Shown piece by piece: positions 3,050 through 63,094 of a stretch of DNA of 64,000 nt. The notes beneath the pieces are model-generated. The model worked only from the letters and a program-made list of their open reading frames with translations. It made no database searches and was not told the origin of the DNA. The stretch is taken from assembly GCA_035265935.1 (NCBI GenBank), contig DATFOC010000076.1, positions 4,084 through 68,083 of the forward strand, given 5' to 3'. The first letter of the stretch is position 1, and the number at the start of each line of letters is the position of its first letter. Source of the DNA: Gaiellaceae bacterium (GTDB lineage Bacteria > Actinomycetota > Thermoleophilia > Gaiellales > Gaiellaceae). The position numbers and the translations under genes are program-made.

Positions 3050-4108
3050 ATGCGCGGCGTGCTCGAGGTGAGAACGCTGACCGACGGGGGCCAGACCCCC
3101 GTCGCGGTGGCGGAGCAGATCGCCGCCTTTGTGGGCGGTGCCCGGTCGACACTGGACTTCGCCCACTACGACTTCAATCTCGACGGCGACACGGCCGGGA
3201 TCGTCGGCAGCGCGATCAAGGCGGCAGCGGCACGAGGCGTGACTGTGCGGTTCGTCTACAACCTCGACCACCGGAACCCGATCCCCGTGCCGCCGCCGCC
3301 CGAGCCCGACGGGCTGCTGATCGCGTCTCTCGAGGTGCCCGTACGGGCGATCGCCGGCGTGCCGGACCTGATGCACCACAAGTACGTCGTGCGGGACAAC
3401 GAGTCGGTCTGGACGGGCTCGACCAACTGGACCGAGGATTCGTGGTTACGGCAGGAGAACGTGATCGTGATCGCGGAGTCCCGCGAGCTGGCCGTGCGCT
3501 TCACCGAGAACTTCGACGAGCTCTGGGACACGGGCGCGGTCGAACGCAGCGGCTTCGTCACCCCGCGGCCCGTGCCCGTCGGGAACCTCCGCGTGCGGCC
3601 GTGGTTCGCGCCGGGGAACGGCGAAGGCCTGTCGCACCGGATCGGCAAGGCGATCGGACGGGCGCGCAGGCGCGTGCGGATCGCGTCACCCGTCATCACC
3701 GCGGCTCCCGTCCTCTCGACGCTCGCGGAGAAGATCTCAGAAGGCGCGCTCGACATCGCCGGCTGCGTCGACCAACCCCAGGTTCAGGGCGTCATCTACC
3801 AGTGGCGCCAGAACGGCAACATCTCGTGGAAGCTGCCGCTGCTCGAGCGGGTGATGCAGGCGCCGTTCTCGGGCAAGCGCTCGACGCCCTGGGGACCGGG
3901 AACGCTCCACGACTTCATGCACGCGAAGGTCACCGTTGCGGACGACACGGTCTTCACGGGGAGCTTCAACCTGTCGCGGTCGGGTGAGCTGAACGCGGAG
4001 AACGTGCTCGAGTTCGAGGATCCCGCGCTGGCCGACCGGCTCGCCCGCTACATCGACGAGGTGCGGGCCCGCTACCCGGTGTTCACGGTCGAGCGCTCAG
4101 TCGTATGA
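3050..4108 (+). CDS. Phospholipase D-like (two HKD motifs) protein
   Basis: 352 aa with two HxK(x4)D motifs: HHKYVVRDNESVWTGSTNWT and HAKVTVADDTVFTGSFNLS. Confidence 0.85.
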   Translation: MRGVLEVRTLTDGGQTPVAVAEQIAAFVGGARSTLDFAHYDFNLDGDTAGIVGSAIKAAAARGVTVRFVYNLDHRNPIPVPPPPEPDGLLIASLEVPVRAIAGVPDLMHHKYVVRDNESVWTGSTNWTEDSWLRQENVIVIAESRELAVRFTENFDELWDTGAVERSGFVTPRPVPVGNLRVRPWFAPGNGEGLSHRIGKAIGRARRRVRIASPVITAAPVLSTLAEKISEGALDIAGCVDQPQVQGVIYQWRQNGNISWKLPLLERVMQAPFSGKRSTPWGPGTLHDFMHAKVTVADDTVFTGSFNLSRSGELNAENVLEFEDPALADRLARYIDEVRARYPVFTVERSVV

Positions 4109-4468
4109 GAGGAACTCGAGCAGGCTGCCGTCCGGGTCGCGGAAGTAGACGCTCGTGATCCGGCCGCGGGGGAACTCCGCCGAGTGAGGCCCCGCCTCGA
4201 TCGGCACTCCGAGCCGCTGAAGATGCTCGACCGCCTCCTCGATGGTCCCGTCCCAACGGAAACAGAGGTCGCTGTTGCCGGGCTTGACCGGCAGCTGCGC
4301 GTTGAGCCCCTCGAACCCGGGCCCATGGACATTGAGCTGCCAGTCGTCGAAAACGTAGAAGCCGAACCACTCGTCCCGCTGGACGATCTCAGCGCCGAGC
4401 ACGTCGCGGTAGAACGCGTTCGAGCGCCCCCAGTCGGAGACGGCGATCACACAGTGGTCGAGTCTCAC
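4097..4468 (-). CDS. VOC / glyoxalase-bleomycin resistance family protein
   Basis: C-terminal 123 aa of ORF 4097..4738 (VRLDHCVIAVSDWGRSNAFYRDVLGAE...VYFRDPDGSLLEF) is a typical VOC fold. GTG at 4468 overlaps the nitroreductase stop (GTGA). Confidence 0.75.
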   Translation of the reverse strand: MRLDHCVIAVSDWGRSNAFYRDVLGAEIVQRDEWFGFYVFDDWQLNVHGPGFEGLNAQLPVKPGNSDLCFRWDGTIEEAVEHLQRLGVPIEAGPHSAEFPRGRITSVYFRDPDGSLLEFLSYD

Positions 4469-5733: not shown

Positions 5734-7308
5734 TTACTCCCACTCGATCGTGCTGGGCGGCTTCGAGGAGATGTCGAGCGCGACGCGGTTCACGCCCGGG
5801 ATCTCGTTGATGACCCGGCTCGAGATCGTCTCGAGCAGGTCGTAGGGCAGACGCGCCCAGTCCGCGGTCATGGCGTCCTCGGAGGTGACCGCCCGGATCA
5901 CGATCGGGTACGCGTACGTCCGCTCGTCGCCCTGCACGCCCACCGAGCGGATTGCCGGCAGCACGGCGAAGGATTGCCAGAAGTCGCGGTAGAGCCCGGC
6001 GCGCCGGACCTCCTCCTGGAGGATCGCGTCCGCCTCGCGCAGGATTTCCAGCCGCTCACGCGTGACCTCGCCGATGATGCGGATCGCGAGGCCCGGGCCT
6101 GGGAACGGCTGGCGCCAGACCATCCGTTCGGGGAGGCCGAGCTCCTCGCCGACGCGGCGCACCTCGTCCTTGAAGAGCAGCCGCAGCGGCTCGACGAGAT
6201 CGAAGTCGACCTCCTCCGGCAAGCCGCCGACGTTGTGGTGCGACTTGATCATCGCCGCGACACCTTCCGTCCCGCCCGACTCGATCACGTCCGAGTAGAG
6301 CGTGCCCTGGACGAGGTAGCGGATCCGCCCAAGGCGCTTCGCTTCGTCCTCGAACACGCGGATGAACTCCTCGCCTACGCGCTTGCGCTTCTCCTCCGGG
6401 TCGTCGATGCCGTCGAGCCGGTCGAGGAACCTGTCCTGGGCCTCTACATGGACGAGCGGGACGTTGAAGTGGCCCTGGAAGGTCTCGACAACCTGCGCTC
6501 CCTCTTCCTTTCGCAACAGCCCGTGGTCGACGAATACGCAGGTGAGCTGGTCGCCGATCGCCTTGTGCACGAGCAGCGCGGCCACCGCCGAGTCCACCCC
6601 GCCGGAGAGCGCGCAGAGAACGCGCTCGGAGCCGACCTGCGCGCGAATGCGCTCGACCTGCTCCTCGATCACCGCGGCCGCGGTCCAGGTGGGCGGCGCC
6701 TCCGCGACGCCGTAGAGGAAGTTCTTGAGGACATCCTGTCCGTGCGCCGTGTGCACCACCTCGGGGTGGAACTGGACACCGTAGAGGCCGCGCTCGCGCG
6801 CCTCGAAGGCCGCGATGGGCGTGGACGGCGAGGACGCCGTCACCTGGGCGTACTCCGGCGGCGCGGTGACGGAATCGCGATGGCTCATCCAAACGACCTG
6901 CTCCTCGGGTGTGTCCTCCAGCAACGCGCCGCCGGCGGAGCGAAGGTCGGCGCGGCCGAACTCGGAGCCGCCGGTCCGCTCCACCCTGCCGCCGAGATCG
7001 AGCGCCATCAGCTGCATGCCGTAGCAGATGCCGAGCGTCGGGATCCCGAGCTCCCAAACCGCCTCGTCGAGCTTGGGCGCCTCGTCGGCGTACACGGATG
7101 CCGGCCCGCCGCTGAGGATCAGGGCACGCGGGTTCCGCGCCCGGATCGCCTGCGCCGGCGTTCGGTGTGAGACGAGCTCCGAGTACACCCGAGCCTCACG
7201 GACGCGCCTGGCGATCAGCTGCGAGTACTGGCCGCCGAAGTCCACGACCAGGACCGGCCGGTCTTCGACTGAAGGCTCGCGCTCCGGAAGCGGGACAACT
7301 TGCCCCAC
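5734..7308 (-). CDS. guaA: GMP synthase (glutamine-hydrolysing)
   Basis: 524 aa with a GATase domain (ICYGMQLM), ATP-PPase SGGVDS motif and canonical C-terminus KPPSTIEWE. Confidence 0.97.
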
Positions 7309-8465
7309 TAGCCCATCCCGATCTGCTGCGCCTTCTGGAGCCCCTTGCCCTCGGTCTTGATCGCCGGCGCCAGCATGATCTCGGCCTTCTGGAAGTCATG
7401 GATCGACTCGTAGCCGCAGGTCGCCATGGCGGTGCGCAACGCCCCCATCAGGTTCAGCGTTCCGTCGTTCTCGGTCGCCGGGCCGATCACGATCTCCTCC
7501 AGCGTGGCGGGCTGGTCGACCTGCACGCGGGCACCGCGGGGAAGCGTCGGGTGGAACGTCGCCATCCCCCAGTGGTAGCCGCGGCCTGGCGCCTCCTTGG
7601 CGCGGGCGAGCGGTGAGCCGACCATGACGGCGTCGGCGCCGCAGGCGATCGCCTTCGCGATGTCGCCACCGGTTCGCATCCCGCCATCGGCGATCACGTT
7701 CACGTAGTTGCCGGTCTCGAGCAGATGCTGGACACGTGCCGCGCTGGCGTCCGAGATCGCCGTCGCCTGTGGAACACCGACGCCGAGCACGCCGCGTGTC
7801 GTGCACGCCGCTCCCGGCCCGACGCCGACGAGCACCGCTTCGGCGCCCGTCCTCATCAGGTGCAGCGCCGTCTGGTACGAGGCGCAGCCGCCGACGATCA
7901 CCGGAATCGGGATCTCCGCGATGAACTCCTTCAGGTTCAGGGCGGCCCCGTTGGACGAGACGTGCTCGGCCGAGACGACCGTTCCCTGGATGACGAGGAC
8001 GTCGAGCCCGGCGGCAAGCGCGATCTCGTAGTGGTCGCGGACCCGCTGAGGCGTCAGCGAGCCGGCGACGAGGACGCCTCTCGACTTGATCTCCTCGATC
8101 CGCCGCGCGATCAGCCGGGGCTCGACCGGCTGCTCGTAGATCTTCTGCATCATCGCCGTTGCCTTCTCCTTGGGCGCCTTGGCGATCTTGGTCAGCTGGA
8201 TGTCCGCGTCGTCGTAGCGGCTGAAGATCCCCTCGAGGTTGAGGACGCCCAGGCCTCCGAGCTCCCCGAGCTTGATCGCGATCTCCGGCGACACCACCCC
8301 GTCCATCGCGGAGCCGAGCAGCGGCAGCTCCAGCAGGTGCGGGCCGAGCTTCCAGCCGATGTCGACGTCCTGTGGGTCTCGCGTCCGTCGGCTCGGCACG
8401 ATCGCGATGTCGTCGAAGCCGTAGGCCTGACGCGCCTTCTTCCCTCGCCCGATCTCAATCTCCAT
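7308..8465 (-). CDS. guaB3: GuaB3-type IMP dehydrogenase-related protein
   Basis: 385 aa. [31 protein letters not shown]... and an IMPDH-like TIM barrel without a CBS insert, as in actinobacterial GuaB3. Strong SD AGGAGGAG. Confidence 0.9.
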
Positions 8466-8477
8466 GGGCTCCTCCTA

Positions 8478-8517
8478 GAAGCACAAAGGCCCAGGCTCCT
8501 CGCGGTTGGCCTGGGCC
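8478..8517 (-). terminator. GC-rich hairpin plus T-rich tail on the minus strand (terminator or attenuator) just upstream of the guaB3 SD
   Basis: GGCCCAGGC (8488-8496) pairs with GCCTGGGCC (8509-8517) around a 12-nt loop. On the minus strand it is followed by TTTGTGCTTC, then AGGAGGAG-ATG of guaB3. Confidence 0.4.
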
Positions 8518-8585
8518 GAAAGACCTCGCTGTGTCAATCCCTTTCAATCGAGAATCGATCGTAACAGCGGGCCTTGACGGCATCG

Positions 8586-8754
8586 GGAGGGCTTGGTGGA
8601 ACGTCGCTCGTCGCAGGCGTGCGATGCTCGTTCCGAGGCAAGGACGCAGGGAGCGTTCGTATCGATGAGATACGGGCGCGAACTGAGGACGCAGACCTCG
8701 GGGCGAAGCAGCGCGGCGGCCCTGCGGCACAGTCGTCGTTTCGCCAAGCCCTCC
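8586..8754. repeat. Foldback element B: 169-nt long imperfect hairpin
   Basis: GGAGGGCTTGG (8586-8596) pairs perfectly with CCAAGCCCTCC (8744-8754). The helix continues inward (8597-8606/8734-8743, 8610-8617/8721-8728, 8621-8638/8696-8714) to an apical hairpin at 8653-8679. Confidence 0.7.
8652..8680. promoter_or_regulatory. Apex dyad AGCG-TT-C-GTATC-GATGA-GATAC-G-GG-CGCG
   Basis: The same 29-bp dyad architecture occurs at 10807-10835 and 61738-61766, with an AT-rich core in a GC-rich context. Confidence 0.5.
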
Positions 8755-8757
8755 TTA

Positions 8758-9783
8758 TCAGCGGTTCCAATGGGGGTAGGCGACTGCACCGGTGATCAGC
8801 TCGCGCGCCCGGAGGGCTGCGACCGAGTAAATGCGGATCGTGCACGGCAACTCGGCGCGGCAGGCCGCGCCGACGACGTTGCGCCCGTCCCGAGACGGAT
8901 GGTCGGCGTACATGGGCTGCTCTCGCCGCGTCCGGCGGTCGAGGTCCACAGCATGGGCTCGACCCGAGTGCCTGTTCACGAGTGCGAGCTCCGCGCCCCA
9001 CTCCGTGGGAATCGTCGCGAGGAGGAGCGGCGAGCGGGAGACCCAGGCGAATGGTCTGACGCCGTATCGACCGAGCTCGGCGAACCGATTCGGAAGCGTC
9101 CGCATTACGGGCGCCCGCTGCCCTCCTTTGGTCCCCATCTGCCAGATCCGCGGCTTGAAGCAACCGGTGCCCACCGGCCGGTAGGCGAAGACGATCGAGT
9201 CTGTCCCCCAGACTGGGTGGCTGCTCCGACCACCCGTGGTCAAGCGACGTTTCGAGCTCCCGTCGATCTGGGCGCTGTAGATGTCGAACCCGCACTCGCC
9301 GGAGGGCGGCCGAGGGAGGTAGACGTCGTACGCGAGCGTGGCTCCGTCCGGCGAGATGCTCCACGTGGTCACCTCACGCCCCTCGATCATGTCGACGCTT
9401 CGATCCTCCAGGTCGATGTTGACGAATGCCTTTCGTTGAAAGGCCAGCAGATGGCCGGAGTCGGGTAGCCATCCCGCCGGCTTCGCCCAAGCGATGAAGC
9501 GCTCGCCGCGGCCGTTGGGGTCGACCGTGTAGATCCCGCCCCGCCGCGAGATCGCGATCGTCCGGCCGTCGGGCGAGACCAGCCCGTAGTGCCCGAGCGC
9601 CAGTCGTCTCATTCGGGTGCCGTTGACGTCGCCGATCCAGACCGCCTTCTGTGGCTTTCCGACGGCCTTCGTGTAGACGAGGTGCTTGGAGGACAGCGCG
9701 GCAGTCGGTGCAGTGTCGTCACCGATCCCGCAGGCGGAGCAGAGAAGGGCGGCCGCCGCGATGAGCGCCGCCCGCGTCATCAC
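8758..9783 (-). CDS. Lipoprotein with TolB-like (PD40/WD40-like) beta-propeller repeats
   Basis: 341 aa. Lipobox signal (LIAAAALLCSACG) and repeated SPDGR/ISPDG motifs typical of PD40 repeats. Confidence 0.75.
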   Translation of the reverse strand: MMTRAALIAAAALLCSACGIGDDTAPTAALSSKHLVYTKAVGKPQKAVWIGDVNGTRMRRLALGHYGLVSPDGRTIAISRRGGIYTVDPNGRGERFIAWAKPAGWLPDSGHLLAFQRKAFVNIDLEDRSVDMIEGREVTTWSISPDGATLAYDVYLPRPPSGECGFDIYSAQIDGSSKRRLTTGGRSSHPVWGTDSIVFAYRPVGTGCFKPRIWQMGTKGGQRAPVMRTLPNRFAELGRYGVRPFAWVSRSPLLLATIPTEWGAELALVNRHSGRAHAVDLDRRTRREQPMYADHPSRDGRNVVGAACRAELPCTIRIYSVAALRARELITGAVAYPHWNR

Positions 9784-10739
9784 AACTCCGAGGGAACGGG
9801 CTCGAGCTTCTCGATCTTCACGCCTTCGGCGAGTCGCGTCAGCTCGCGCGGCTCGAACCGGCCGGCGCCGACCTCCTGGACCGCAGCGGCTCCGGCCGCG
9901 ACCGCCCGCTGGAGTGCCTCCTCGGGAGCGAGGTCGTCGAGCCGCGCGGCCATGTAGCCGGCCAGGAGCACGTCGCCCGACCCGGCCGGCGAGACCGTCG
10001 CGACCTCGGGCACCGCGGCGTGGAACCGCTCGACCTCGCGCTCCGCCCGGAGCAGCGCGTAGCAGCCCGAGCTGAGCGTGATCAGGACGTTCCTGGCGCC
10101 CAGGTCGGAGATGTGGTCGAGCGCCTGGACGAAGTCCTGCGGGTCGTGGAACTCCTGCCCGACGAGCCCTTCGGCCTCCCGCTCGTTCGGCGTGACGAGG
10201 AACGGCTCCGCCTCCGTTCCGAGCCGGAGCGGTTGTCCCTCCGCGTCGAGAATCGCCCGGATCCCGCGCCGCTCCAGCTCGCGAATCGCCTCCGCGTAGA
10301 AGCCCTCTTCCACACCGCGCGGCAGCGTGCCTGCGAAGACGACCGCGTCAGCGCCGCGCGAGAGGTAGCGGACCTTCTCCAACAGGAGCTCGAGCTCTTC
10401 CGGCGTCACGTGCGGCCCCCACTCGTTGATCTCCGTGTACGTGCCGCCGGTCGGGTCGACGACGGCCGTGGAGGTTCGCGACTCCTCGCCGATTCGCACG
10501 AAGTCGTTGAGGATCCCCTCGCGGGTGAGCTCGCTGACGACCCGCGCGCCGGTGCGGCCGCCTGCCAGCCCGGTGGCAACGACTGGGACGTCCATCCGTT
10601 TCAGCGCGCGGGCGATGTTGACTCCCTTGCCGCCGGCGAGCGTCAGGCCGGCGCTCGCTCGGTGGCGCTGGCCGGGCTGAAAGTTGGGGACCGTCACCGT
10701 GCGGTCGAGGGCCGCGTTCATGGTCACCGTCACGATCAT
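9780..10739 (-). CDS. pfkB: 1-phosphofructokinase family sugar kinase (PfkB/ribokinase fold)
   Basis: 319 aa. MIVTVTMNAALDRT..., GGKGVNIARAL and the C-terminal anion-hole motif SPAGSGDVLLAG are typical of FruK/PfkB kinases. Confidence 0.85.
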   Translation of the reverse strand: MIVTVTMNAALDRTVTVPNFQPGQRHRASAGLTLAGGKGVNIARALKRMDVPVVATGLAGGRTGARVVSELTREGILNDFVRIGEESRTSTAVVDPTGGTYTEINEWGPHVTPEELELLLEKVRYLSRGADAVVFAGTLPRGVEEGFYAEAIRELERRGIRAILDAEGQPLRLGTEAEPFLVTPNEREAEGLVGQEFHDPQDFVQALDHISDLGARNVLITLSSGCYALLRAEREVERFHAAVPEVATVSPAGSGDVLLAGYMAARLDDLAPEEALQRAVAAGAAAVQEVGAGRFEPRELTRLAEGVKIEKLEPVPSEL

Positions 10740-10740
10740 G

Positions 10741-10902
10741 TGACCCTCCCGGTGACGTTGCCGCGTTCCTGGCGTGCGAAAAACGCCTCAGGCCTGCCAG
10801 GAAGGGCGCGTGCATATCCAAGGGATATGTGCGCGACCGAGGGGCGCGCGTGAGGTGATTTTGCAGCCGCCAGGGACACGGAGGGCGTTGCCGGGATGGT
10901 CA
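10741..10902. repeat. Foldback element C: 162-nt long imperfect hairpin filling the carboxypeptidase/pfkB spacer
   Basis: The outer stem pairs 10741-10759 with 10884-10902 (18 of 19 positions pair, 4 of them G:T). The helix continues through 10761-10774/10868-10881 and 10776-10790/10851-10864 to the apex CATATCC-AAG-GGATATG (10813-10829). Confidence 0.7.
10807..10835. promoter_or_regulatory. Apex dyad CGCG-TG-C-ATATC-CAAGG-GATAT-G-TG-CGCG (candidate operator or RNA apical stem)
   Basis: Near-perfect 29-bp palindrome about 70-95 nt upstream of the pfkB start. Shared with 8652-8680 and 61738-61766. Confidence 0.5.
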
Positions 10903-12018
10903 CCTAAACCAGCCTCCAATGTGATCCAGTGTGCGACCCGCATACCAGCCGGTGCGGTCGAAGAAGCCAGGGTCGTCGCGCGCCTCGGCCGCGATGAGCG
11001 GCGTCCGTCCGAGGAGACGCTTGCGGTCGTAGAAGCGGACCTCGCCGACGACTTGTCCCTCGCGGACGGGAAGGTCGAGCCGGGACGGCAGGACGACGCG
11101 CTCCACCAGCGGCCGCCCGATCCGGACCGGTCTCCGCATCGGCCGCGCGGCGACGACGGAAACCGGCTCCGAGCCCCACTCCGCGGGGATCCGGCCATAG
11201 ACACGGTCCGCCGACGCGAGCGGCACGAACGCGTACCGCGACATGCCCCAGGCGAGCAGCTCCTCGAGGTCCGCGTTGCGGACGGCGCGCGACGGGCTTC
11301 CGAGAATCGTCGCGTAGATCGTCACGTGGTTGCCGCGGGCTGCCGCGACCTGATTCCACCCGGCGCCGGAGGTGTGGCCGGTCTTGACGCCGAAGGTGCC
11401 CGGGAACTCGCCCAGGAGGTCGTTCCAGGTGTGGAGCGTCCGGCCGCCGGAGATCGAAGCCGACTCCTGGCGCACCAGCTGACGGATTATCGGCTCGCGC
11501 ATGGCGGCCATCGCGAGCTTCGTGACGTCCCGAGCGCTCGAGTAGTGGCCCTGCGCGTCGAGCCCATCCGGCCGGACGAAGCGCGTGTCGGGAAGCCCGA
11601 TGCTGCCGGCCGTGTTGTTCATCAGCGTCGGGAACGGCTCCCCGACCCGACCCCCGACGAACTCTCCTAGCGCAACGGCCGAGTCGTTCGCGCTCTGAAT
11701 CAGCGCGGCCGCCATCAGCTCGCGGACGCGGATCCGCTCCCCGGCGCGCAGACGGATCGTCGACCCGGTCACGCCGACGGCGTCTGGATCGACAGTCACC
11801 AGCTCGTTCGGCCTCGCGTGGGCCACGGTAAGCAAGGCGGTCATCAGCTTCGTGATGCTCGCGATCGGCAGCCGATCGTGAGCCCGGCGGGCAAGCAGCA
11901 CCTCGCCCGTCTGCGCCTCCTGCACGAGGTAGGCGCGAGCGTCGACCTCAGGAGTCGCCGCGGACGCGGCTGAGGTCGAACAGGCAAGGACAGCGACAAG
12001 GACCGCCAGTCGCTTCAC
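10900..12018 (-). CDS. D-alanyl-D-alanine carboxypeptidase (serine peptidase S11, PBP5 type)
   Basis: 372 aa. Signal peptide, SxxK active site (ASITKLMT), SGN-like and KTG (VKTGHT) motifs. Confidence 0.85.
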   Translation of the reverse strand: MKRLAVLVAVLACSTSAASAATPEVDARAYLVQEAQTGEVLLARRAHDRLPIASITKLMTALLTVAHARPNELVTVDPDAVGVTGSTIRLRAGERIRVRELMAAALIQSANDSAVALGEFVGGRVGEPFPTLMNNTAGSIGLPDTRFVRPDGLDAQGHYSSARDVTKLAMAAMREPIIRQLVRQESASISGGRTLHTWNDLLGEFPGTFGVKTGHTSGAGWNQVAAARGNHVTIYATILGSPSRAVRNADLEELLAWGMSRYAFVPLASADRVYGRIPAEWGSEPVSVVAARPMRRPVRIGRPLVERVVLPSRLDLPVREGQVVGEVRFYDRKRLLGRTPLIAAEARDDPGFFDRTGWYAGRTLDHIGGWFR

Positions 12019-50532: not shown

Positions 50533-51618
50533 ATGGCGAAGGTCGAGGCTGCGCAGTACGGCGATCGGAAGGTCTACAGCGTTTCCGCGTTCAACCGCGG
50601 AATCGCTGATTGGCTCTCTCGGCTGCCGACGGTCTGGGTCGAAGGCGAAGTCACCGAGCTTCGGCGCCAGCAGCGTTGGGCGAGCGTCTTCCTCACGCTG
50701 AAGGATCCGGCTGACGGCTCCTGCCTGCGAGTTTCGATGCCGCGCAGCCAGTTCGACGCGCTGCGGCTCGACCTCGTCGACGGAGAGCGTGTCCACGTCT
50801 ACGGCAGGCCGGAGCTCTTCGAGGCGCGCGGCGACTTTCGCTTCCGGGCGCTGTCGATCGAGCGTTTCGGGCTCGGCGACCACCTGGCTGCGCTGGAGCG
50901 GCTCAAGCGCAAGCTCGCCGCAGAGGGGCTCTTCGAACGACGCCGGCCGCTGCCGCGCTTCCCGCGCCGGATCGGGCTCGTGACCGGCAACGACGCTGCC
51001 GCGAAGCGCGACGTCCTCACCGCGCTCACGACCCGCTTCCCGCCGGCGCGCGTCGTCGTTGCAGAGACGTACGTCCAGGGCCCCCGCGCTGCACCCGCGA
51101 TCGTCGAGGCGATCGGAGCACTGTGCGAGATCGACGACGTCGACGTGATCGTGCTCGCCCGTGGCGGAGGGAACTTCGAGGACCTCCTGCCGTTCAGCGA
51201 CGAGCGGTTGGTGCGAGTCGTGGCCTCCTGCCGGGTTCCGATCGTGTCCGCGGTGGGCCACGAGCAGGACATGCCGCTAACGGATCTCGCCGCCGACGTC
51301 CGCGCGTCGACGCCGAGCGTCGCCGCCCGGCTCGTCGTCCCGGACGCGGACGAGCTGCGCGAGCGCCTCGAGCAGACCCGTGAACGGCTGCGCCGCTCGC
51401 CGCTGCTCACGGTCGAGCGGAAGCGCGCGCGGCTCGATGGAGCCTACGGACGGCTACGAGCACTCTCCCCCACCTCCACGCTCGAGCGCGGATATGCCAT
51501 CGTCCGCCGCGACGGGAGGATCGTCCGGACCTCCGAGGAGGTCGAGGCCGGGTCGCGGGTGGACGTCGAGCTCGGACAGGGCGGCTTCGACGCAACGGTC
51601 GAGGACACGCACCAGTGA
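50533..51618 (+). CDS. xseA: Exodeoxyribonuclease VII large subunit
   Basis: 361 aa. An OB-fold N-terminus (VWVEGEVTE), RIGLVTG, ARGGG and VGHEQD motifs. Confidence 0.9.
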   Translation: MAKVEAAQYGDRKVYSVSAFNRGIADWLSRLPTVWVEGEVTELRRQQRWASVFLTLKDPADGSCLRVSMPRSQFDALRLDLVDGERVHVYGRPELFEARGDFRFRALSIERFGLGDHLAALERLKRKLAAEGLFERRRPLPRFPRRIGLVTGNDAAAKRDVLTALTTRFPPARVVVAETYVQGPRAAPAIVEAIGALCEIDDVDVIVLARGGGNFEDLLPFSDERLVRVVASCRVPIVSAVGHEQDMPLTDLAADVRASTPSVAARLVVPDADELRERLEQTRERLRRSPLLTVERKRARLDGAYGRLRALSPTSTLERGYAIVRRDGRIVRTSEEVEAGSRVDVELGQGGFDATVEDTHQ

Positions 51619-51667
51619 CCTGGGGGTTCTGGTCGTTCGCTGGCGGTGCGGGGCCGGAGGGCACAGT

Positions 51668-51967
51668 ATGAGCAATACGGGCCCGGAGAGCCCCGTGCCG
51701 CCAGCGGGCGAAGGCGACGGCGGAGGCGAGCCTCGCTCGCCGGGAGCTGGCGCCGATCAGAGCCGCCAGGTGACCTTCGAGGAGGCTCAACGCGAGCTGG
51801 AACGGATCGTCCAGCAGCTCGAGAGCGGGCAGGCCGACCTGGACGAGGCGATCACGCTCTGGGAGCGAGGCGAGGAGCTCTACCGCCTCTGCTCCGACAA
51901 GCTCGACTCGGCGCAGGGCAAGATCGAGGAGCTCGCCCGCAGGGTGGAAGCAGTGCGTCCCTCGTAA
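51668..51967 (+). CDS. xseB: Exodeoxyribonuclease VII small subunit
   Basis: Starts at ATG 51668. The core FEEAQRELERIVQQLESGQADLDEAITLWERGEELYRLC matches XseB. Confidence 0.85.
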   Translation: MSNTGPESPVPPAGEGDGGGEPRSPGAGADQSRQVTFEEAQRELERIVQQLESGQADLDEAITLWERGEELYRLCSDKLDSAQGKIEELARRVEAVRPS

Positions 51968-55575: not shown

Positions 55576-56106
55576 CTATTTCAGCGCCTCTATCCGTTCC
55601 TCGAGCTCCCGAACCCGGGCCTGCGCCCTGGCCAGCTGCTCCTCGAGCCGCTTCCGCTTGGCGGCGTTCGGGTCGGGCTTGGGCTTCGGCGGCGGCTTGG
55701 GCTTCGGCTTCGGCTTGACCTTCGGCGCCGGCTTGGCCGCCCGGCGCGGTCGCGACCGGGCGCCGGACGGAACGGCGGCGAGCAGGGGCCCGAATCCCGC
55801 CTGCTCGACGTCCTCGGCGAGCGTCCCGGCCGTCAGCGCCTTCGAGGCCTCCTTGTCGATGGAGGCGGCCCGCAGCGTCTGCGCCACGCGGGTCACGGTG
55901 GCGGCCGTAGCGGCGCCGCGCTCCTCGAGTGCCGCTCGTGCCTCCTCCGTCAGCTCCTCGACGAGCCGCCGGTGCGCCGAGTTCGCCTCGCGTAGCTGTC
56001 CGGGATCCCGGCCGCTGACGACCCCGCGCTGCGCCTTTCGCAGCTCGTCGCCGGCCTTCACGAGCGCCTTCGCCTCCTGCGGGCGGCGACGGACCGACTG
56101 GTTCAC
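55576..56106 (-). CDS. Hypothetical protein with Lys/Pro-repeat linker; true N-terminus probably lies further upstream (to about 56265)
   Basis: The ORF track starts at GTG 56106, but the same frame upstream reads ...RRASDLYGLPVEEFTKARDELAKELRNAGKKEAADEVKSLRKPSVSAWAVNQ. This is clearly coding, yet has no ATG/GTG/TTG. Confidence 0.6.
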   Translation of the reverse strand: MNQSVRRRPQEAKALVKAGDELRKAQRGVVSGRDPGQLREANSAHRRLVEELTEEARAALEERGAATAATVTRVAQTLRAASIDKEASKALTAGTLAEDVEQAGFGPLLAAVPSGARSRPRRAAKPAPKVKPKPKPKPPPKPKPDPNAAKRKRLEEQLARAQARVRELEERIEALK

Positions 56107-60000: not shown

Positions 60001-60669
60001 CCCCAGCGCGGCCGGCAGCGCGAAGAGGTCGGGGAGCCGGTCTTCGGCTTCAGGAAAGGCGTCCTCCCGGTCGACGAGGAACGCCTGCATGCCGAGCGCC
60101 CTGGCGCCCTCGAGGTCGTCCTCGGGCGAGTCGCCGACCATCGCGGCCCGCTCGGCAGGGACACCGAGCCGGTCGAGCACGGCCTGGAAGATCGTCGGGT
60201 GGGGCTTCACCTTCCCGTGCACCCGGGACGACAGCGCGGCGTGCACGCGGATGCTGTGGTGCGCGAGGAACTCGTCGACGTCGCGACCCGTGTTCGAGAC
60301 GAGGCCGAGCTTCAGCCCGTGCTCACGCAGGTGGTCGAGCACCGGCAGCGCATCGTCGAAGAGGTCGAAGTTGTGCGCTTGCTCCCAGGCCTTGGTCATC
60401 TCGACCGCGGCCTCGTACGCGCGATCCGTGTCTCCGCCCATGCCGCGGATGATCCGCTCGGTGAACCCGACCCAGATCTCCTCGTCGTGGCGGAAGTCCG
60501 GATGCTTGTGGAGCCCCTCCACGGCCTTCGCGCGGGCATCCCGATAGAGGGCCGGATCGAGCTCCAGGCCGAAGCGACGACCCAGCCGCTGATACCCCTC
60601 CGGGCCGAGGTCCGGCCCCGGCTTGGCCAGCGTGAAGTCGAGGTCGAAGAGAACCGCCTGGATGTCCAT
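59986..60669 (-). CDS. HAD family hydrolase
   Basis: Starts at the internal ATG 60669: MDIQAVLFDLDFTL (DxD motif), VSNT and GDSPEDDLEGA. Confidence 0.85.
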   Translation of the reverse strand: MDIQAVLFDLDFTLAKPGPDLGPEGYQRLGRRFGLELDPALYRDARAKAVEGLHKHPDFRHDEEIWVGFTERIIRGMGGDTDRAYEAAVEMTKAWEQAHNFDLFDDALPVLDHLREHGLKLGLVSNTGRDVDEFLAHHSIRVHAALSSRVHGKVKPHPTIFQAVLDRLGVPAERAAMVGDSPEDDLEGARALGMQAFLVDREDAFPEAEDRLPDLFALPAALGLAAT

Positions 60670-60835
60670 CAGTGCCTCTGCAGGTAATGCAGCCCCGCTT
60701 CTGGGTCGTGAGCACCAAGCCAGAGACCGCACTCGCCCGCAGCCAAGGCTGAGAGCCTTGGTAAGGGCGAGGGTGGGCTCTGGCGCCGCGTGATCACGGG
60801 CCAGAAGCCGGCGTGTATTGCCTGTAGAGGCACTG
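60670..60835. repeat. Foldback element A: 166-nt long imperfect hairpin filling the whole C-N hydrolase/HAD spacer
   Basis: CAGTGCCTCTGCAGGTAAT (60670-60688) pairs with ATTGCCTGTAGAGGCACTG (60817-60835), with 2 G:T pairs. Inner helices are 60697-60704/60801-60808 and 60719-60738/60765-60784. The apex is CCAAGGCT-GAG-AGCCTTGG (60743-60761). Confidence 0.7.
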
Positions 60836-61561
60836 TTACGGCGTAGGAGTTGGCCACCGGTAGGCATCTGCCTGCCTGCTGGCCAGCGAGGGAAGCTTCG
60901 CGCGAACGTTCTCGAGCCGACGCCTGTCGAGCTCTGCGGAGATCACCGTCTCCTCGTCCGGCGCACACGCGACCACGGTCCCCCACGGATCCGCGATCAG
61001 CGAGCGCCCGTAGCTGAGACGCCCCGGCAGCGTCTCGCCGATCTGGGCCGCGGCCGCGACGTAGTACTGATTCTCGACTGCACGGGCACGGAGCAGCAGC
61101 TCCCAGTGATCCTTTCCGGTGTACAGCGTGAAATGCGCCGGAACCGTGACGAGGTGCGCGCCCTGGAGCGCGAGGATCCGGTAAAGCTCGGGGAAGCGGA
61201 CGTCGTAGCAGACGGTCAGCCCGGTGGCCCAGCCTTCCACCTCGAGGACGACCGGCTCGGCGCCCGGCTCCTCCGCGTCCGACTCCCGATACACGTGGCC
61301 GCCGACCTCGACGTCGAACATGTGGATCTTCCGGTAGAGGCCGGCGATCGACCCGTCCGACTCGAAGACGATGCTCGTGTTGGAGAGCTTGTCGCGACCC
61401 TCCCGACGCTCGGTGATCGAGCCGCCGACGAGCGTGATCCCGTGCCCGCTCGCCCAGGCCGCCATCGCCTGAACCGACTCGCCGTCCTCGAGCGTCTCCG
61501 CTGCACCATGGAGCACGTCGGGGGTGCCGATCGCGTTCCACTTCTCCGGGAGGACGACCAC
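60836..61561 (-). CDS. Carbon-nitrogen hydrolase (nitrilase superfamily); true start probably upstream (CTG at 61684)
   Basis: The ORF track starts at GTG 61561 (MVVLPEKWN). The same frame upstream encodes the conserved N-terminus ...LRVACVQLTSRDDKAANIEKAEQLVARAAATGAD without an ATG/GTG/TTG. Catalytic Cys region: GLTVCYDVRFPE. Confidence 0.85.
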   Translation of the reverse strand: MVVLPEKWNAIGTPDVLHGAAETLEDGESVQAMAAWASGHGITLVGGSITERREGRDKLSNTSIVFESDGSIAGLYRKIHMFDVEVGGHVYRESDAEEPGAEPVVLEVEGWATGLTVCYDVRFPELYRILALQGAHLVTVPAHFTLYTGKDHWELLLRARAVENQYYVAAAAQIGETLPGRLSYGRSLIADPWGTVVACAPDEETVISAELDRRRLENVRAKLPSLASRQADAYRWPTPTP

Positions 61562-61670
61562 GTCGGCGCCCGTCGCCGCCGCGCGTGCGACGAGCTGCTC
61601 GGCTTTCTCGATGTTCGCCGCCTTGTCGTCCCGGCTCGTGAGCTGGACGCAGGCGACGCGAAGCGTGTCA

Positions 61671-61833
61671 GGAGTTCGTTTCAGGGTGATGCTCGTCGTC
61701 AGGGTGCGATGGGTGGATGCCAGGCCCGGACGCAGACCGCGTCCATATCAAGTCGATATTGGCGCGGTTGAGGACGACGCCTGGCGCCGCCCAGCACGGC
61801 CTGGCGGCACAGCCTCACTCTGGAACGAGCTCC
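61671..61833. repeat. Foldback element D: 163-nt long imperfect hairpin in the divergent C-N hydrolase/MFS spacer
   Basis: Pairings: 61671-61693 with 61811-61833 (19 WC, 3 G:T, 1 mismatch); 61700-61716 with 61787-61803; 61719-61725 with 61779-61785; 61735-61744 with 61761-61769. The apex is ATATC-AAGTC-GATAT. Confidence 0.65.
61738..61766. promoter_or_regulatory. Apex dyad CGCG-TC-C-ATATC-AAGTC-GATAT-T-GG-CGCG
   Basis: In register with the dyads at 8652-8680 and 10807-10835. It lies centrally between two divergent genes. Confidence 0.5.
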
Positions 61834-61861
61834 GAGCATCCAGTGGCAGGATAGCCCCGCT

Positions 61862-63094
61862 TTGGAAGTGGCAGCAGACAGACCAGGGCGCGCACGCGCC
61901 CTCCATGCCCTGCGCAGCAGGGACTTCCGCCTGCTCTGGAGCGGCCAGACGATCTCGCTCGTCGGCGACGGAGCCTTCCTGGTGGCGCTCGGCTGGACGA
62001 GCTTCGCTCTGACGGGGTCGAAGAGCACCCTCGCGCTCGTCCTCCTTGGACACAGCGCGGCGATGCTCGCGACGCTGCTAATCGGCGGAGTGCTCGCCGA
62101 CCGCTACCCGCGCCGCACGCTCATGATCATCTCCGACCTCTCGCGCTGCGCGTGCATGGTCGTCCTCTTCGCCGTGGACGTGAGCGGCAACCTCGAGCTC
62201 TGGAGCCTCATCACGCTCGCCGTCCTCTACGGGGCGGGCGACGGGTTCTTCTACCCGGCCTACGGCGGGATCGTTCCGCTGGTCGTCGACGAGCACCATC
62301 TCGCGTCGGCAAACGCGCTCACCGGCCTCTCGCGCCAGGCCGCCTTCGTCGTCGGGCCGGCTGTCGCGGGCGTCCTCTACGGCGTCGCGGGAGCGTCGTC
62401 CGTGTTCGCGCTCAACGCGGTCAGCTTCGTCGTCGCGGCCGCGCTCATGGCCATGGCGCGCCCGCGCGGGTTCGAGCGCGACGAGCCGCAGGGCACTCTC
62501 AAGGAGATCGCCGACGGCCTGCGCTACGTCCTCGGCGTCCCGTGGCTCTGGATCACGATCTTCCTCGCCTCGTTCATCCTCATGGTCGCCATGGCCCCGT
62601 ACACGGCGCTGCTGCCTGCGTTCGTCGAGGAGCAGTTCCACCGCGGCGTCGGCTCGTACGGCACGCTCTTCACGCTCCAGTCGCTCGGCATGGCAGTCGG
62701 GAGCCTTGCGTTCGGCCAGACGAACCCGAGCCGCCGGCGCGTGATCATCATGTATCTGCTCTTCGCAGCCAATGACATCTGCGTGATCGCCATGACGCTG
62801 ACCCACTCCTTCAGCCTTGCCTGCGCCCTCGTCGCGGCGCGAGGGGTCTGCATCGGCTACGGGATCGGGGTCTGGACCACGCTCTTGATGCAGCAGGTCC
62901 CGTCGTCGAAGCTTGCGCGTGTGACGAGCCTCGACTTCTTCGGATCCTTCGCGCTGATCCCCGTGGGCTACGCGCTGACCGCAGTCGTGGCAGGGTCGTT
63001 CTCGCCTGCAACGCTGTTGTTCGTCGGATTCACGCTTTCGGCCATCCTCTGGATCGCTCCGCTCGCGTCGACGCGGGTGCGCACAGCCGCATGA
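61862..63094 (+). CDS. MFS transporter (EntS/DUF894-like)
   Basis: 410 aa. FRLLWSGQTISLVGDG, GGVLADRYPRR, 12 TM segments. TTG 61862 or GTG 61868 start. Confidence 0.88.
   Translation: MEVAADRPGRARALHALRSRDFRLLWSGQTISLVGDGAFLVALGWTSFALTGSKSTLALVLLGHSAAMLATLLIGGVLADRYPRRTLMIISDLSRCACMVVLFAVDVSGNLELWSLITLAVLYGAGDGFFYPAYGGIVPLVVDEHHLASANALTGLSRQAAFVVGPAVAGVLYGVAGASSVFALNAVSFVVAAALMAMARPRGFERDEPQGTLKEIADGLRYVLGVPWLWITIFLASFILMVAMAPYTALLPAFVEEQFHRGVGSYGTLFTLQSLGMAVGSLAFGQTNPSRRRVIIMYLLFAANDICVIAMTLTHSFSLACALVAARGVCIGYGIGVWTTLLMQQVPSSKLARVTSLDFFGSFALIPVGYALTAVVAGSFSPATLLFVGFTLSAILWIAPLASTRVRTAA

What the first reader, a model, noticed from the sequence alone, without database searches (positions are those of the whole stretch)
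10741..10902. Element C: a 162-nt hairpin spans the carboxypeptidase stop codon to the pfkB ribosome-binding site
The outer stem pairs TGACCCTCCCGGTGACGTT (10741-10759) with 10884-10902; 18 of 19 positions pair, 4 of them G:T. Its right end includes the TGA of the S11 carboxypeptidase gene (10900-10902). Its left end starts 2 nt after the pfkB ATG. It contains CCCTCCC (10744-10750), the complement of the pfkB SD GGGAGGG. The helix continues to an AT-rich apex, CATATCC-AAG-GGATATG. About 8-9 G:T pairs versus 1 A:C favour the + strand fold. On the mRNA strand the hairpin would sequester the SD. On the + strand it would be an antisense RNA across the gene junction.
Basis: seen in the sequence. 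Interest (0 to 1): 0.7.

Follow-up and report, generated by a model that had tools for sequence, protein, structure and literature searches.

The report
Hairpin-shaped mobile repeat between two genes
The 162-nt hairpin is real, but it is one copy of a previously undescribed family of small hairpin-shaped mobile DNA repeats in soil Gaiellales bacteria, and this copy landed on the junction of two formerly overlapping genes and now supplies their stop codon, ribosome-binding site and start codon.

Summary
Window 10740-10903 folds into a near-perfect ~165-nt hairpin, and the + strand fold is much stronger (-113 kcal/mol, z -9.9) than the - strand fold (-89, z -6.1).

It is not a pfkB-specific regulator. 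In all 13 closest relatives, and in none of 80 orthologous loci, is the element present. There the carboxypeptidase stop and the pfkB start overlap.

A covariance model built only from copies in other genomes hits 10736-10906 (58.6 bits, E 2e-11). It also hits three more + strand copies in the window: 8582-8756, 60668-60835 and 61667-61835. More than 120 soil-metagenome contigs carry the same conserved core.

Copies have terminal inverted repeats and TA/TNA flanks, some of them true direct duplications. They show presence/absence differences between relatives and sit at stop codons. This fits a MITE-like non-autonomous transposon.

One feature is unusual. One fixed strand of the element is under folding constraint: G:U 460 versus A:C 46 cells, and 33 of 40 pairs covary. 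The hairpin also carries a conserved asymmetric core.

On the mRNA, the weaker complement buries the element-borne SD opposite the stop codon. This suggests translational coupling, which is inferred only.

The family is new but the kind is known. Interest is moderate.

The parts
10740..10903 (+). Body of the hairpin element ('e10741'), from terminal inverted repeat to terminal inverted repeat. The strand given is the family's 'sense' strand, the one that folds best.
   Evidence: Model R1, built without any window sequence, matches 10736-10906 full length (58.6 bits, E 2.2e-11, + strand). Folding. Relative to relatives the region is a 168-nt insertion, 10739-10906, replacing 4 nt.
10740..10759 (+). 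Left terminal arm (GTGACCCTCCCGGTGACGTT). On the - strand it reads ...CCGGGAGGGUCAC and provides the pfkB Shine-Dalgarno GGGAGGG (10744-10750).
   Evidence: sequence. The terminus is nearly identical to that of another family copy, L184, TTAATGACCCTCCCGG.
10884..10903 (+). Right terminal arm (GGCGTTGCCGGGATGGTCAC). It contains TCA at 10900-10902, which is the TGA stop of the carboxypeptidase on the - strand.
   Evidence: The last residue before the stop differs from relatives...GGWFR* here versus ...GGWFS* in L001.
10807..10835 (+). Apical stem-loop with an A/T-rich tip (CATATCC-AAG-GGATATG). It corresponds to the family's covarying apex hairpin.
   Evidence: alignment to model. Apex helix in the family: 10 of 11 pairs have compensatory changes and 97.5% of cells are paired.
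10790..10806 (+). Degenerate left half of the family's conserved core. The family consensus is AAGGACGCAGGGAGCG; this copy reads ..GCCAGGAAGGGCGCG.
   Evidence: Alignments.
10836..10849 (+). Degenerate right half of the conserved core. The family consensus is CGCGACYGAGGACGC; this copy reads ACCGAGGGGCGC.
   Evidence: Alignments.
10737..10739 (-). pfkB start codon (ATG), directly abutting the element. Relatives have GTG or CTG at the same codon, overlapping the upstream TGA.
9780..10739 (-). pfkB-family sugar kinase gene, downstream of the element in the direction of transcription.
   Evidence: Pfam PF00294, E 2.9e-42.
10900..12018 (-). D-Ala-D-Ala carboxypeptidase (Peptidase_S11) gene, upstream of the element in the direction of transcription.
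   Evidence: Pfam PF00768, E 3.9e-46.
8582..8756 (+). Second copy of the same family. It is cleanly absent from the same site in L002 and L001.
   Evidence: R1 113.5 bits. Empty sites. It is 80% identical to a copy at a different locus in L013.
60668..60835 (+). Third copy, with a subfamily-2 core. It exactly fills the gap between the TAA stop of a CN_hydrolase gene and the ATG of a HAD hydrolase gene, both on the - strand.
   Evidence: R1 35.7 bits. Folds. It is 85% identical to copies at other loci in L001, L011, L037 and L016. Pfam.
61667..61835 (+). Fourth copy, lying between divergent genes.
   Evidence: R1 93.8 bits. Fold.

Best explanation
The hairpin is a diverged copy of a roughly 165-170-bp non-autonomous mobile element. 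It is a MITE-like terminal-inverted-repeat element whose two halves pair along their whole length. The family is abundant in Gaiellales (Thermoleophilia, Actinomycetota) from soil.

Shown:
- The element is an insertion that relatives lack.
- It belongs to a multi-copy family found at many different loci.
- Family members have inverted termini flanked by TA or TNA. In several copies the flanks are perfect 3-nt direct repeats.
- They usually sit so that the stop codon of a gene reading into them lies exactly at the terminus.
- One defined strand of the element is under strong constraint to fold as a single strand.

Inferred:
- A transposase that makes 2-3-bp TA-containing duplications moved it in trans. 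IS630/Tc1-mariner-like or IS5-group-like enzymes fit this. TA-containing triplets are rare in a 70% G+C genome outside stop codons, so copies accumulate at gene ends.
- Here it entered the overlapping stop/start junction of the carboxypeptidase and pfkB genes. The element's own terminal sequences now give the upstream gene its TGA and the downstream gene its SD. A small rearrangement at the left flank gave ATG.
- The copy is antisense to the operon, so the mRNA carries the weaker complement of the hairpin. That hairpin still buries the SD in the basal helix directly opposite the stop codon. A ribosome terminating at UGA would melt that helix and free the SD. The insertion thereby preserves translational coupling rather than acting as an evolved switch.
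For: Insertion:
- All 13 closest relatives (88-95% PfkB identity) read GATCA-GGAG/CGAG-AACCAGCC, with stop and start overlapping. The window has 168 nt in place of those 4 nt.
- The R1 search of 917 kb from 80 orthologous loci finds no copy at this junction.

Family membership:
- R1 was built from 25 copies in other genomes. It scores 10736-10906 at 58.6 bits, E 2e-11, full length.

Mobility:
- The copy at 8582-8756 is absent from L002 and L001, but an 80% identical copy sits at another site in L013.
- The copy at 60668-60835 has 85% identical copies at four other sites.
- There are 13 hits in the 80 orthologous loci and 113 hits in 100 metagenome loci.
- More than 120 soil contigs carry the exact core pattern, and that scan was truncated.

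Termini and flanks:
- Termini are of the form (C)TA|GTGCCCC...GGGGCAC|TA(G), TA|GGAGGG...CCCTCC|TA and TNA|GARCTC...GAGYTC|TNA.
- Direct repeats TTA/TTA (twice), TAA/TAA, TGA/TGA, TCA/TCA and CTA/CTA occur.
- The empty site for the L013 copy has a single TCA.

Stop-codon association:
- The stop of the incoming gene lies at the terminus in 21 of 31 left ends and 34 of 62 right ends.

Structure under selection:
- 93.1% of cells are paired versus 72.9% in shuffles. 33 of 40 pairs show double changes. Covariation is 0.525 versus 0.05-0.10 in slid controls.

Strand asymmetry:
- 122 of 122 copies fold better on the core-sense strand, mean -124 versus -101 kcal/mol.
- Sense wobble versus antisense wobble is 620 to 139 in the arms and 110 to 8 in the apex, using a strand-symmetric alignment.
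- In the model pairs the count is 460 to 46.
- Between 24 independent pairs of closely related copies it is 76 to 11.

Coupling model:
- Opening SD..AUG costs 13.9 kcal/mol in the free mRNA and 5.1 kcal/mol with a ribosome footprint at UGA.

General background:
- MITE properties are reviewed in PMC10969869.
Against: - No autonomous element or transposase with matching ends was found in the 1.6 Mb of sequence held. The mobilising enzyme is unknown.
- This copy has no intact target-site duplication: CAT on the left and CTA on the right. The 4 nt adjoining the right flank also differ from the relatives (CCTA versus GGAG). The insertion event therefore cannot be reconstructed cleanly.
- Flank patterns differ between terminus types (2 nt versus 3 nt). 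They are palindromic in many copies, so the size of the duplication is not settled.
- A classical double-strand cut-and-paste mechanism does not explain why one fixed strand must fold. It also does not explain why an asymmetric core (AAGGACGCAGGGAGCG ... CGCGACYGAGGACGC) is conserved across different terminus types.
- The coupling mechanism rests on folding energies only.
Confidence: 0.8

Rival explanations
1. The hairpin is a purpose-evolved cis-regulatory structure on the mRNA, such as a translational attenuator or RNA thermometer, that controls pfkB by sequestering its SD.
For: The SD is paired in the - strand MFE structure. Opening it costs 13.9 kcal/mol. The - strand fold is itself far better than shuffles (z -6.1).
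Against: The element is absent from the orthologous junction in all 80 related loci. The sequence belongs to a dispersed repeat family. The SD-complementary motif is a family terminus, not a local invention. The strand under folding constraint is the opposite one. A secondary, co-opted effect on pfkB remains possible and is included in the best explanation.
Confidence: 0.05
2. The + strand is transcribed as a stand-alone antisense RNA that spans the gene junction and regulates the carboxypeptidase/pfkB operon.
For: The + strand fold is stronger by 24 kcal/mol, with 10 G:U pairs. Family-wide constraint is on that strand.
Against: No sigma-70-like promoter or intrinsic terminator lies in 10500-11100 on either strand, although actinobacterial promoters are poorly covered by that scan. 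The same element occurs in all four orientations relative to neighbouring genes. The favoured strand is therefore a property of the element, not of this operon. There is no Rfam match.
Confidence: 0.1
3. The family is mobilised, or otherwise functions, through a single-stranded form of one strand. This could be an ssDNA hairpin handled by an HUH/Y1-type enzyme, as with REPIN/RAYT or IS200/IS605 elements, or an RNA intermediate or cofactor. The alternative being rejected here is a classical DDE cut-and-paste transposase.
For: There is a strong, orientation-intrinsic excess of G:U (G:T) over A:C, including between closely related copies. Pair columns toggle G:C / G:U / A:U with no A:C. A conserved asymmetric internal loop with the direct repeat AGGACGC on both arms is shared by copies with different termini. 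Copies are about twice as often antisense as sense to flanking genes.
Against: Several copies carry true 3-nt direct duplications of varying sequence. Such duplications point to staggered double-strand target cleavage and are not made by Y1 transposases. Termini are mostly CTAG rather than the GTAG of REPs. No replication-linked GC3 skew component is detectable relative to element orientation (r = 0.002, CI -0.005 to 0.010), although these genomes may simply have little skew. No RAYT, TnpA or reverse-transcriptase gene was looked for or found nearby.
Confidence: 0.2
4. The palindrome is kept perfect by mutation, not selection. Template switching within quasi-palindromes copies changes from one arm to the other, which would mimic covariation.
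For: Quasi-palindrome correction is an established mutational process in bacteria (general knowledge). The hairpin at 10740-10903 remains nearly perfect although its core sequence has drifted from the family consensus.
Against: Template switching would remove G:T and A:C mismatches alike, so it cannot produce a 5-10-fold excess of one over the other relative to a fixed element strand. It also does not explain the conserved unpaired core.
Confidence: 0.05

Closest known systems
Bacterial MITEs with TA duplication, such as Correia/CREE (NEMIS) elements of Neisseria and RUP of Streptococcus pneumoniae (IS630-type)
   Same: Small size (about 100-200 bp), no coding capacity and terminal inverted repeats. 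TA at both flanks. Many dispersed copies in intergenic regions, with presence/absence differences between relatives. Transcripts fold into long hairpins that can change expression of neighbouring genes; RNase III cleavage of Correia hairpins is described in PMC10969869 and PMC2649163.
   Different: The sequence is unrelated and the host is a high-G+C Gaiellales genome. The two halves pair along the entire 165 nt rather than only at 20-30-bp termini. A conserved asymmetric core is shared by copies with different termini. There is a marked one-strand G:U bias and compensatory evolution. Copies are strongly placed at stop codons. No parent insertion sequence has been identified.
REPINs (REP doublets forming hairpins) mobilised by RAYT transposases
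   Same: Roughly 100-nt whole-length hairpins, intergenic and in many copies. They are thought to act as single-stranded DNA, which would give a strand-specific folding constraint like the one seen here.
   Different: REPs carry a conserved 5' GTAG and leave no target duplication. Here the termini are mostly CTAG/TNA, and several copies have true 3-nt direct duplications. No RAYT gene was examined.
ERIC (enterobacterial repetitive intergenic consensus) elements
   Same: These are roughly 127-bp imperfect palindromes that are co-transcribed with neighbouring genes. Their effects on mRNA fate depend on orientation (PMC10969869).
   Different: They come from a different lineage and have a different sequence. 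ERIC is not known to carry stop and SD signals at its ends or the G:U asymmetry documented here.
Translational coupling through a helix that masks the downstream ribosome-binding site, as in the coat-replicase coupling of RNA phage MS2 (general knowledge)
   Same: The downstream SD is base-paired to sequence that the upstream ribosome must traverse, so upstream translation opens it. This was modelled.
   Different: Here the masking helix is the base of a 165-nt transposon hairpin. That hairpin brings stop and start side by side although they lie 160 nt apart. The effect is untested.

Membership tests
MITE (miniature inverted-repeat transposable element) | Small (about 50-500 bp) and non-coding | tested here: met
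   The element spans 164 nt from terminus to terminus. Only spurious ORFs with no codon-position G+C signal overlap it.
MITE (miniature inverted-repeat transposable element) | Terminal inverted repeats | tested here: met
   10740-10759 pairs with 10884-10903. The family termini are tabulated.
MITE (miniature inverted-repeat transposable element) | Target-site duplication flanking the element | tested here: inconclusive
   This copy has CAT on the left and CTA on the right, so there is no intact duplication. In the family, TA is on both sides in most type a and b copies. Type c has six perfect 3-nt direct repeats. The empty site for the L013 copy shows a single TCA that is duplicated in the filled site.
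MITE (miniature inverted-repeat transposable element) | Multiple dispersed copies, with presence/absence at orthologous sites | tested here: met
   Four copies lie in the 64-kb window, 13 in 917 kb of related genomes and 113 in 100 metagenome loci. Empty sites are shown.
MITE (miniature inverted-repeat transposable element) | A related autonomous element with the same termini that supplies the transposase | tested here: inconclusive
   None was found in the 1.6 Mb held. Whole genomes could not be scanned.
IS630/Tc1-mariner-derived MITE | Insertion at TA with TA duplication, often into CTAG | tested here: inconclusive
   Flanks of the cTA|G...C|TAg type dominate terminus types a and b. They are palindromic, however, so duplication and repeat extension cannot be told apart. 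Type c fits a 3-nt duplication better.
   TTA, TAA, TGA and TCA direct repeats occur in type c copies. The unrelated element at 51617-51776 is flanked by TGA...TGA. The assignment of this duplication size to those subgroups is from memory and was not checked here.
REP/REPIN-RAYT | Conserved GTAG at the 5' end, no target duplication, and an associated RAYT gene | tested here: not met
   Termini are mostly CTAG/TNA, and true direct duplications occur. The RAYT gene was not examined.
Integron attC site | R''/R' core sites (RYYYAAC ... GTTRRRY) at the ends, in cassette arrays next to an integrase | tested here: not met
   The ends are GTGACC.../...GGTCAC, with no GTTRRRY core. Copies are scattered singly among housekeeping genes.
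Any described RNA family (Rfam 15) | A covariance-model match | tested here: not met
   The only gathering-threshold hit in the window is a tRNA. Searches at E up to 10 over 8400-11000 and 60500-62000 gave only weak, unrelated hits.
Conserved cis-regulatory leader or riboswitch of pfkB | Presence at the orthologous position across relatives | tested here: not met
   It is absent upstream of pfkB in all 80 related loci.

The most novel reading that the evidence does not exclude
The family may be more than a passive MITE. It may carry a structured single-stranded module, either an RNA or an ssDNA hairpin on one defined strand. That module has a conserved 13x13-nt asymmetric internal loop (AAGGACGCAGGGA / GACYGAGGACGC) and a covarying A/T-rich apex, and it would be required for the element's own propagation or regulation. 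Several results point this way. The module is shared by copies with at least three different terminus types. It evolves by the G:C / G:U / A:U route with almost no A:C. Copies are depleted about two-fold in the sense orientation within operons. Together these suggest a transposon-borne non-coding RNA, or a mobilisation route that depends on a strand-specific hairpin, not described for TIR/TSD elements in bacteria.
Probability: 0.3. Interest if true: 0.7.

Novelty: new member of a known kind. Interest (0 to 1): 0.45.

Why it matters
Locally, the finding changes how this junction should be read. What looks like an elaborate regulatory hairpin is a transposon scar. The scar split two translationally coupled genes by 160 nt, yet it left both with working signals, because the element's ends carry an inward stop and an outward SD.

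More generally, it uncovers an abundant repeat family in Gaiellales, a major but poorly studied soil lineage. To my knowledge and in the sources searched, the family is undescribed. It inserts at stop codons, so annotators of these genomes should mask it. Comparative RNA-motif searches will otherwise keep rediscovering it as 'structured intergenic RNA'.

The unexplained strand-specific folding constraint and the conserved core make the family a good test case. The question is whether some bacterial MITEs depend on an RNA or ssDNA structure.

Tried and rejected
1. Replication-linked orientation. All five hairpins in the window lie on the + strand, which suggested a link to the replication fork, as for IS200/IS605 elements or attC sites. 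Separating coding-strand and replication components of GC3 skew around 117 loci gave r = 0.002 (CI -0.005 to 0.010). There is no support for the link, although these genomes may have too little skew for the test to work.

2. A quick ungapped hairpin scanner did not discriminate in 70% G+C sequence. A sliding RNAfold and local folding worked, but they were too slow for all loci.

3. Search for a parent insertion sequence with the same termini. BLAST of 48-nt ends found only more MITE copies. A 13-mer search allowing one mismatch was swamped by chance matches. The apparent 3.1-kb pair in L122 turned out to be two separate copies flanking ordinary genes.

4. Rfam at gathering and at permissive thresholds gave nothing relevant. 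I considered hammerhead (the core contains CUGAGGA), SRP-like, 6S, retron, attC and REP readings. I dropped them for lack of the other defining features.

5. Literature searches for a Gaiella or actinobacterial hairpin repeat or MITE found nothing. A 2024 review of prokaryotic MITEs does not mention Actinobacteria.

6. I tried to reconstruct the exact insertion event at this junction from a TA in an ancestral ...TGGTTTAGCTGATC. L006 uses AGC for the final Ser. The reconstruction needs an extra small deletion at the left flank, so it remains speculation.

Full report
**Observation.** Window 10740-10903 lies between two - strand genes. One is a Peptidase_S11 D-Ala-D-Ala carboxypeptidase (10900-12018). 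The other is a PfkB-family kinase (9780-10739). The 174-nt stretch folds at -113.0 kcal/mol on the + strand (z -9.9) and at -89.2 on the - strand (z -6.1). No shuffle reached either value. The + fold has 10 G:U pairs and the - fold has 1.

**It is not alone.** A sliding fold of the whole window gave five extreme outliers. All favoured the + strand by 20-30 kcal/mol, and all had lower G+C than their surroundings (folds). They lie near 8585, 10741, 51617, 60670 and 61671. Each has 6-11 G:U pairs on + and 1-4 on -. Three of them share a recognisable apex and core sequence.

**It is an insertion.** PfkB relatives retrieved from one genome per species are Gaiellaceae, Gaiellales or Thermoleophilia MAGs. 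In the 13 closest (88-95% identity) the two genes abut as GATCA-GGAG/CGAG-AACCAGCC. There the TGA stop overlaps the GTG/CTG start. The window has 168 nt (10739-10906) in place of those 4 nt. None of the 80 loci has a copy at this junction. The copy at 8582-8756 is likewise cleanly missing from L002 and L001.

**It is mobile and multi-copy.** BLAST of the window elements against the related loci found copies of 80-88% identity at unrelated positions. These were in L013, L035 (two), L042 (two), L045, L051, L024 and L038 for subfamily 1, and in L001, L011, L016 and L037 for subfamily 2. Their hairpins are shown. Subfamily 1 has a conserved, non-palindromic core around the apex: AAGGACGCAGGGAGCG, then a variable A/T-rich apex hairpin of about 20 nt, then CGCGACYGAGGACGC.

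I built a covariance model (R1) from 25 copies, none of them from the window. In the window it finds:
- 8582-8756 at 113.5 bits;
- 61667-61835 at 93.8 bits;
- 10736-10906 at 58.6 bits, E 2e-11;
- 60668-60835 at 35.7 bits.

All four are full length and on the + strand. The finding is therefore a bona fide, though diverged, member. The element at 51617 is not matched and belongs to another family. R1 finds 13 copies in 917 kb of orthologous loci and 113 in 100 metagenome loci.

**Ends and target.** Termini fall into three types:
- type a: TA|GGAGGGYTTGG...CCAARCCCTCC|TA;
- type b: TA|GTGCCCC...GGGGCAC|TA, often inside CTAG;
- type c: TNA|GARCTCG...CGAGYTC|TNA.

Type c shows perfect 3-nt direct repeats of varying sequence: TTA twice, TAA, TGA, TCA and CTA. 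These cannot be extensions of the inverted repeat, so they are target duplications. The empty site of the L013 copy has a single TCA, whereas the filled site has TCA on both sides. This pattern points to a transposase that makes 2-3-bp TA-containing duplications. From general knowledge of insertion sequences, IS630/Tc1-mariner (TA) and some IS5 subgroups (TNA) do this. I could not decide between them, and I found no parent element.

The stop codon of a gene reading into the element lies at the terminus in 21 of 31 cases at the left end and 34 of 62 at the right end. This is expected if TA-containing triplets in a 70% G+C genome are mostly stop codons. It explains why the hairpin 'spans from stop codon to RBS'.

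This copy's own flanks are CAT (left, = ATG of pfkB) and CTA (right). That is not an intact duplication. The terminus GTGACCCTCCCGG is almost identical to that of copy L184 (TTAATGACCCTCCCGG).

**Structure is selected, on one strand.** On the model-based alignment of 112 distinct copies, 93.1% of cells pair, versus 72.9% in shuffles. 33 of 40 pairs show changes on both sides. The covariation score is 0.525, versus 0.19 in shuffles and 0.05-0.10 in slid controls. That alignment is fitted to the model, so I also used an alignment blind to strand, aligning each left arm to the reverse complement of its right arm. It gave sense-strand wobble versus antisense-strand wobble of 620 to 139 in the arms and 110 to 8 in the apex. 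Of 118 copies, 110 favour the sense strand.

All 122 copies tested fold better on the core-sense strand, with means of -124 and -101 kcal/mol. Several pair columns alternate G:C, G:U and A:U with no A:C at all. Between 24 independent pairs of closely related copies, single-sided differences are WC/G:U 76 times and WC/A:C 11 times, and there are 46 double compensatory differences. The asymmetry therefore belongs to the element itself, and it persists among copies that diverged recently.

**Orientation.** Relative to the element's sense strand, flanking genes are both antisense in 38 cases, both sense in 17, convergent in 17 and divergent in 12. Genes reading into the right (antisense) end outnumber those reading into the left end by 62 to 31. 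The favoured strand is therefore not tied to local transcription, but there is about a two-fold excess of antisense placement. I found no replication-linked skew component.

**What it does at this locus (inferred).** The copy is antisense to the operon, so the mRNA carries the complement. That complement has A:C mismatches where the sense strand has G:U, but it is still a -89 kcal/mol hairpin. Its basal helix pairs the SD (GGGAGGG, 4 nt before AUG) with the sequence just downstream of the carboxypeptidase UGA.

Opening SD..AUG costs 13.9 kcal/mol in the free mRNA. It costs 5.1 kcal/mol when the 30 nt around the UGA are held single-stranded, as under a terminating ribosome. The hairpin also places stop and start side by side. 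The simplest reading is that the ancestral overlap coupling (GTGA) has been replaced by coupling through helix melting. This is a by-product tolerated by selection rather than an evolved switch. No promoter- or terminator-like site occurs in 10500-11100.

**Comparison with known systems.** The element meets the working definition of a bacterial MITE: it is small and non-coding, has terminal inverted repeats and flanking duplications, is multi-copy, and gives hairpin transcripts (PMC10969869). It works most like Correia/CREE elements in its TA flanks and in hairpin transcripts that affect neighbours (PMC2649163). It differs in several ways:
- it pairs along its whole length;
- it has a conserved asymmetric core shared across different termini;
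- it shows the one-strand G:U signature;
- it is placed at stop codons.

It is not a REP/REPIN, because it has no GTAG and duplications are present. It is not an attC site or an Rfam family, and it is not a conserved pfkB leader. Searches found no description of such a repeat in Gaiellales or other Actinobacteria.

**Verdict.** The regulatory or antisense-RNA interpretation is only partly supported. The best explanation is a MITE-like insertion at a formerly overlapping gene junction (confidence about 0.8). The open question is why one strand of the family must fold and what the conserved core is for. An RNA or ssDNA role in mobilisation is possible (about 0.3) and would raise the interest considerably.

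Noticed in passing
window 51617-51776 (+): A fifth long structure: a branched hairpin at -118 kcal/mol on + versus -88 on -. It lies between two + strand genes and is flanked by TGA...TGA, the first being the stop of the gene at 50533-51618. Model R1 does not match it. Related copies (79-84% identity) occur in both orientations in L021 (6984-7109 and 4702-4791). It is probably a second MITE family with a TNA duplication.
   Followed up: partly
L024 2251-2420, L184 4114-4282, L085, L098, L119, L121: The family looks modular. Outer arms typical of subfamily 2 (...GGGTCGCGAGCACCAAGC...) occur with the subfamily-1 core, and the same core occurs with three different terminus types. This suggests recombination between elements, or a core that is retained for a reason.
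   Followed up: partly
L004 about 575-640 (site orthologous to window ~16160 and to L013 571-742): At the site where L013 has a full copy, L004 has a mini-hairpin of about 60 nt. It keeps both termini and the TCA flanks but lacks the middle. This could be an internal deletion or an excision remnant of the same insertion.
   Followed up: no
L004 1192-1306 and L012 1185-1295: A different hairpin of about 100 nt (around -50 kcal/mol, termini GCTTGTGTTCCATG...CATGGAACACAAGC) is inserted relative to the window at ~15611. It is possibly yet another small repeat family.
   Followed up: no
window 8758-9783 (-): This 341-aa gene has no Pfam match. Its product has an N-terminal lipoprotein-like signal and WD40/TolB-like repeats by eye. 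Among the close relatives it is present only in L001, L002 and L007. In L003-L006 and L008-L012 pfkB is followed directly by the IMPDH-family gene. The copy at 8582-8756 abuts this gene's stop codon.
   Followed up: no
L001, L002, L004-L006, L012, L013 at locus position 6001: In these relatives the codon aligned with the pfkB start is CTG (CTGATC..., overlapping the upstream TGA) rather than GTG or ATG. Either they use a rare CTG start or the true start lies elsewhere.
   Followed up: no
L122 10284-10452: The terminal CTAG of another copy overlaps the GTG start (CACTAGTG) of a 414-aa glycosyltransferase-like gene. The outward-facing GAGG of the terminus lies at SD distance. This is the same 'element supplies the SD' arrangement as at pfkB and at window 60668-60835.
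   Followed up: partly
window 55641-55848 (+): Local folding gave a single-hairpin structure of -118 kcal/mol with 80 pairs. It lies mostly inside the - strand gene at 55576-56106, which has very high G+C. It is probably a compositional effect and is not matched by R1.
   Followed up: no
window 4078-4467: About 390 nt present in the window and in L002 are replaced by about 20 nt in L001 and are variable in other relatives. Neither strand forms a hairpin. The stretch may be a small gene that has been gained or lost.
   Followed up: no
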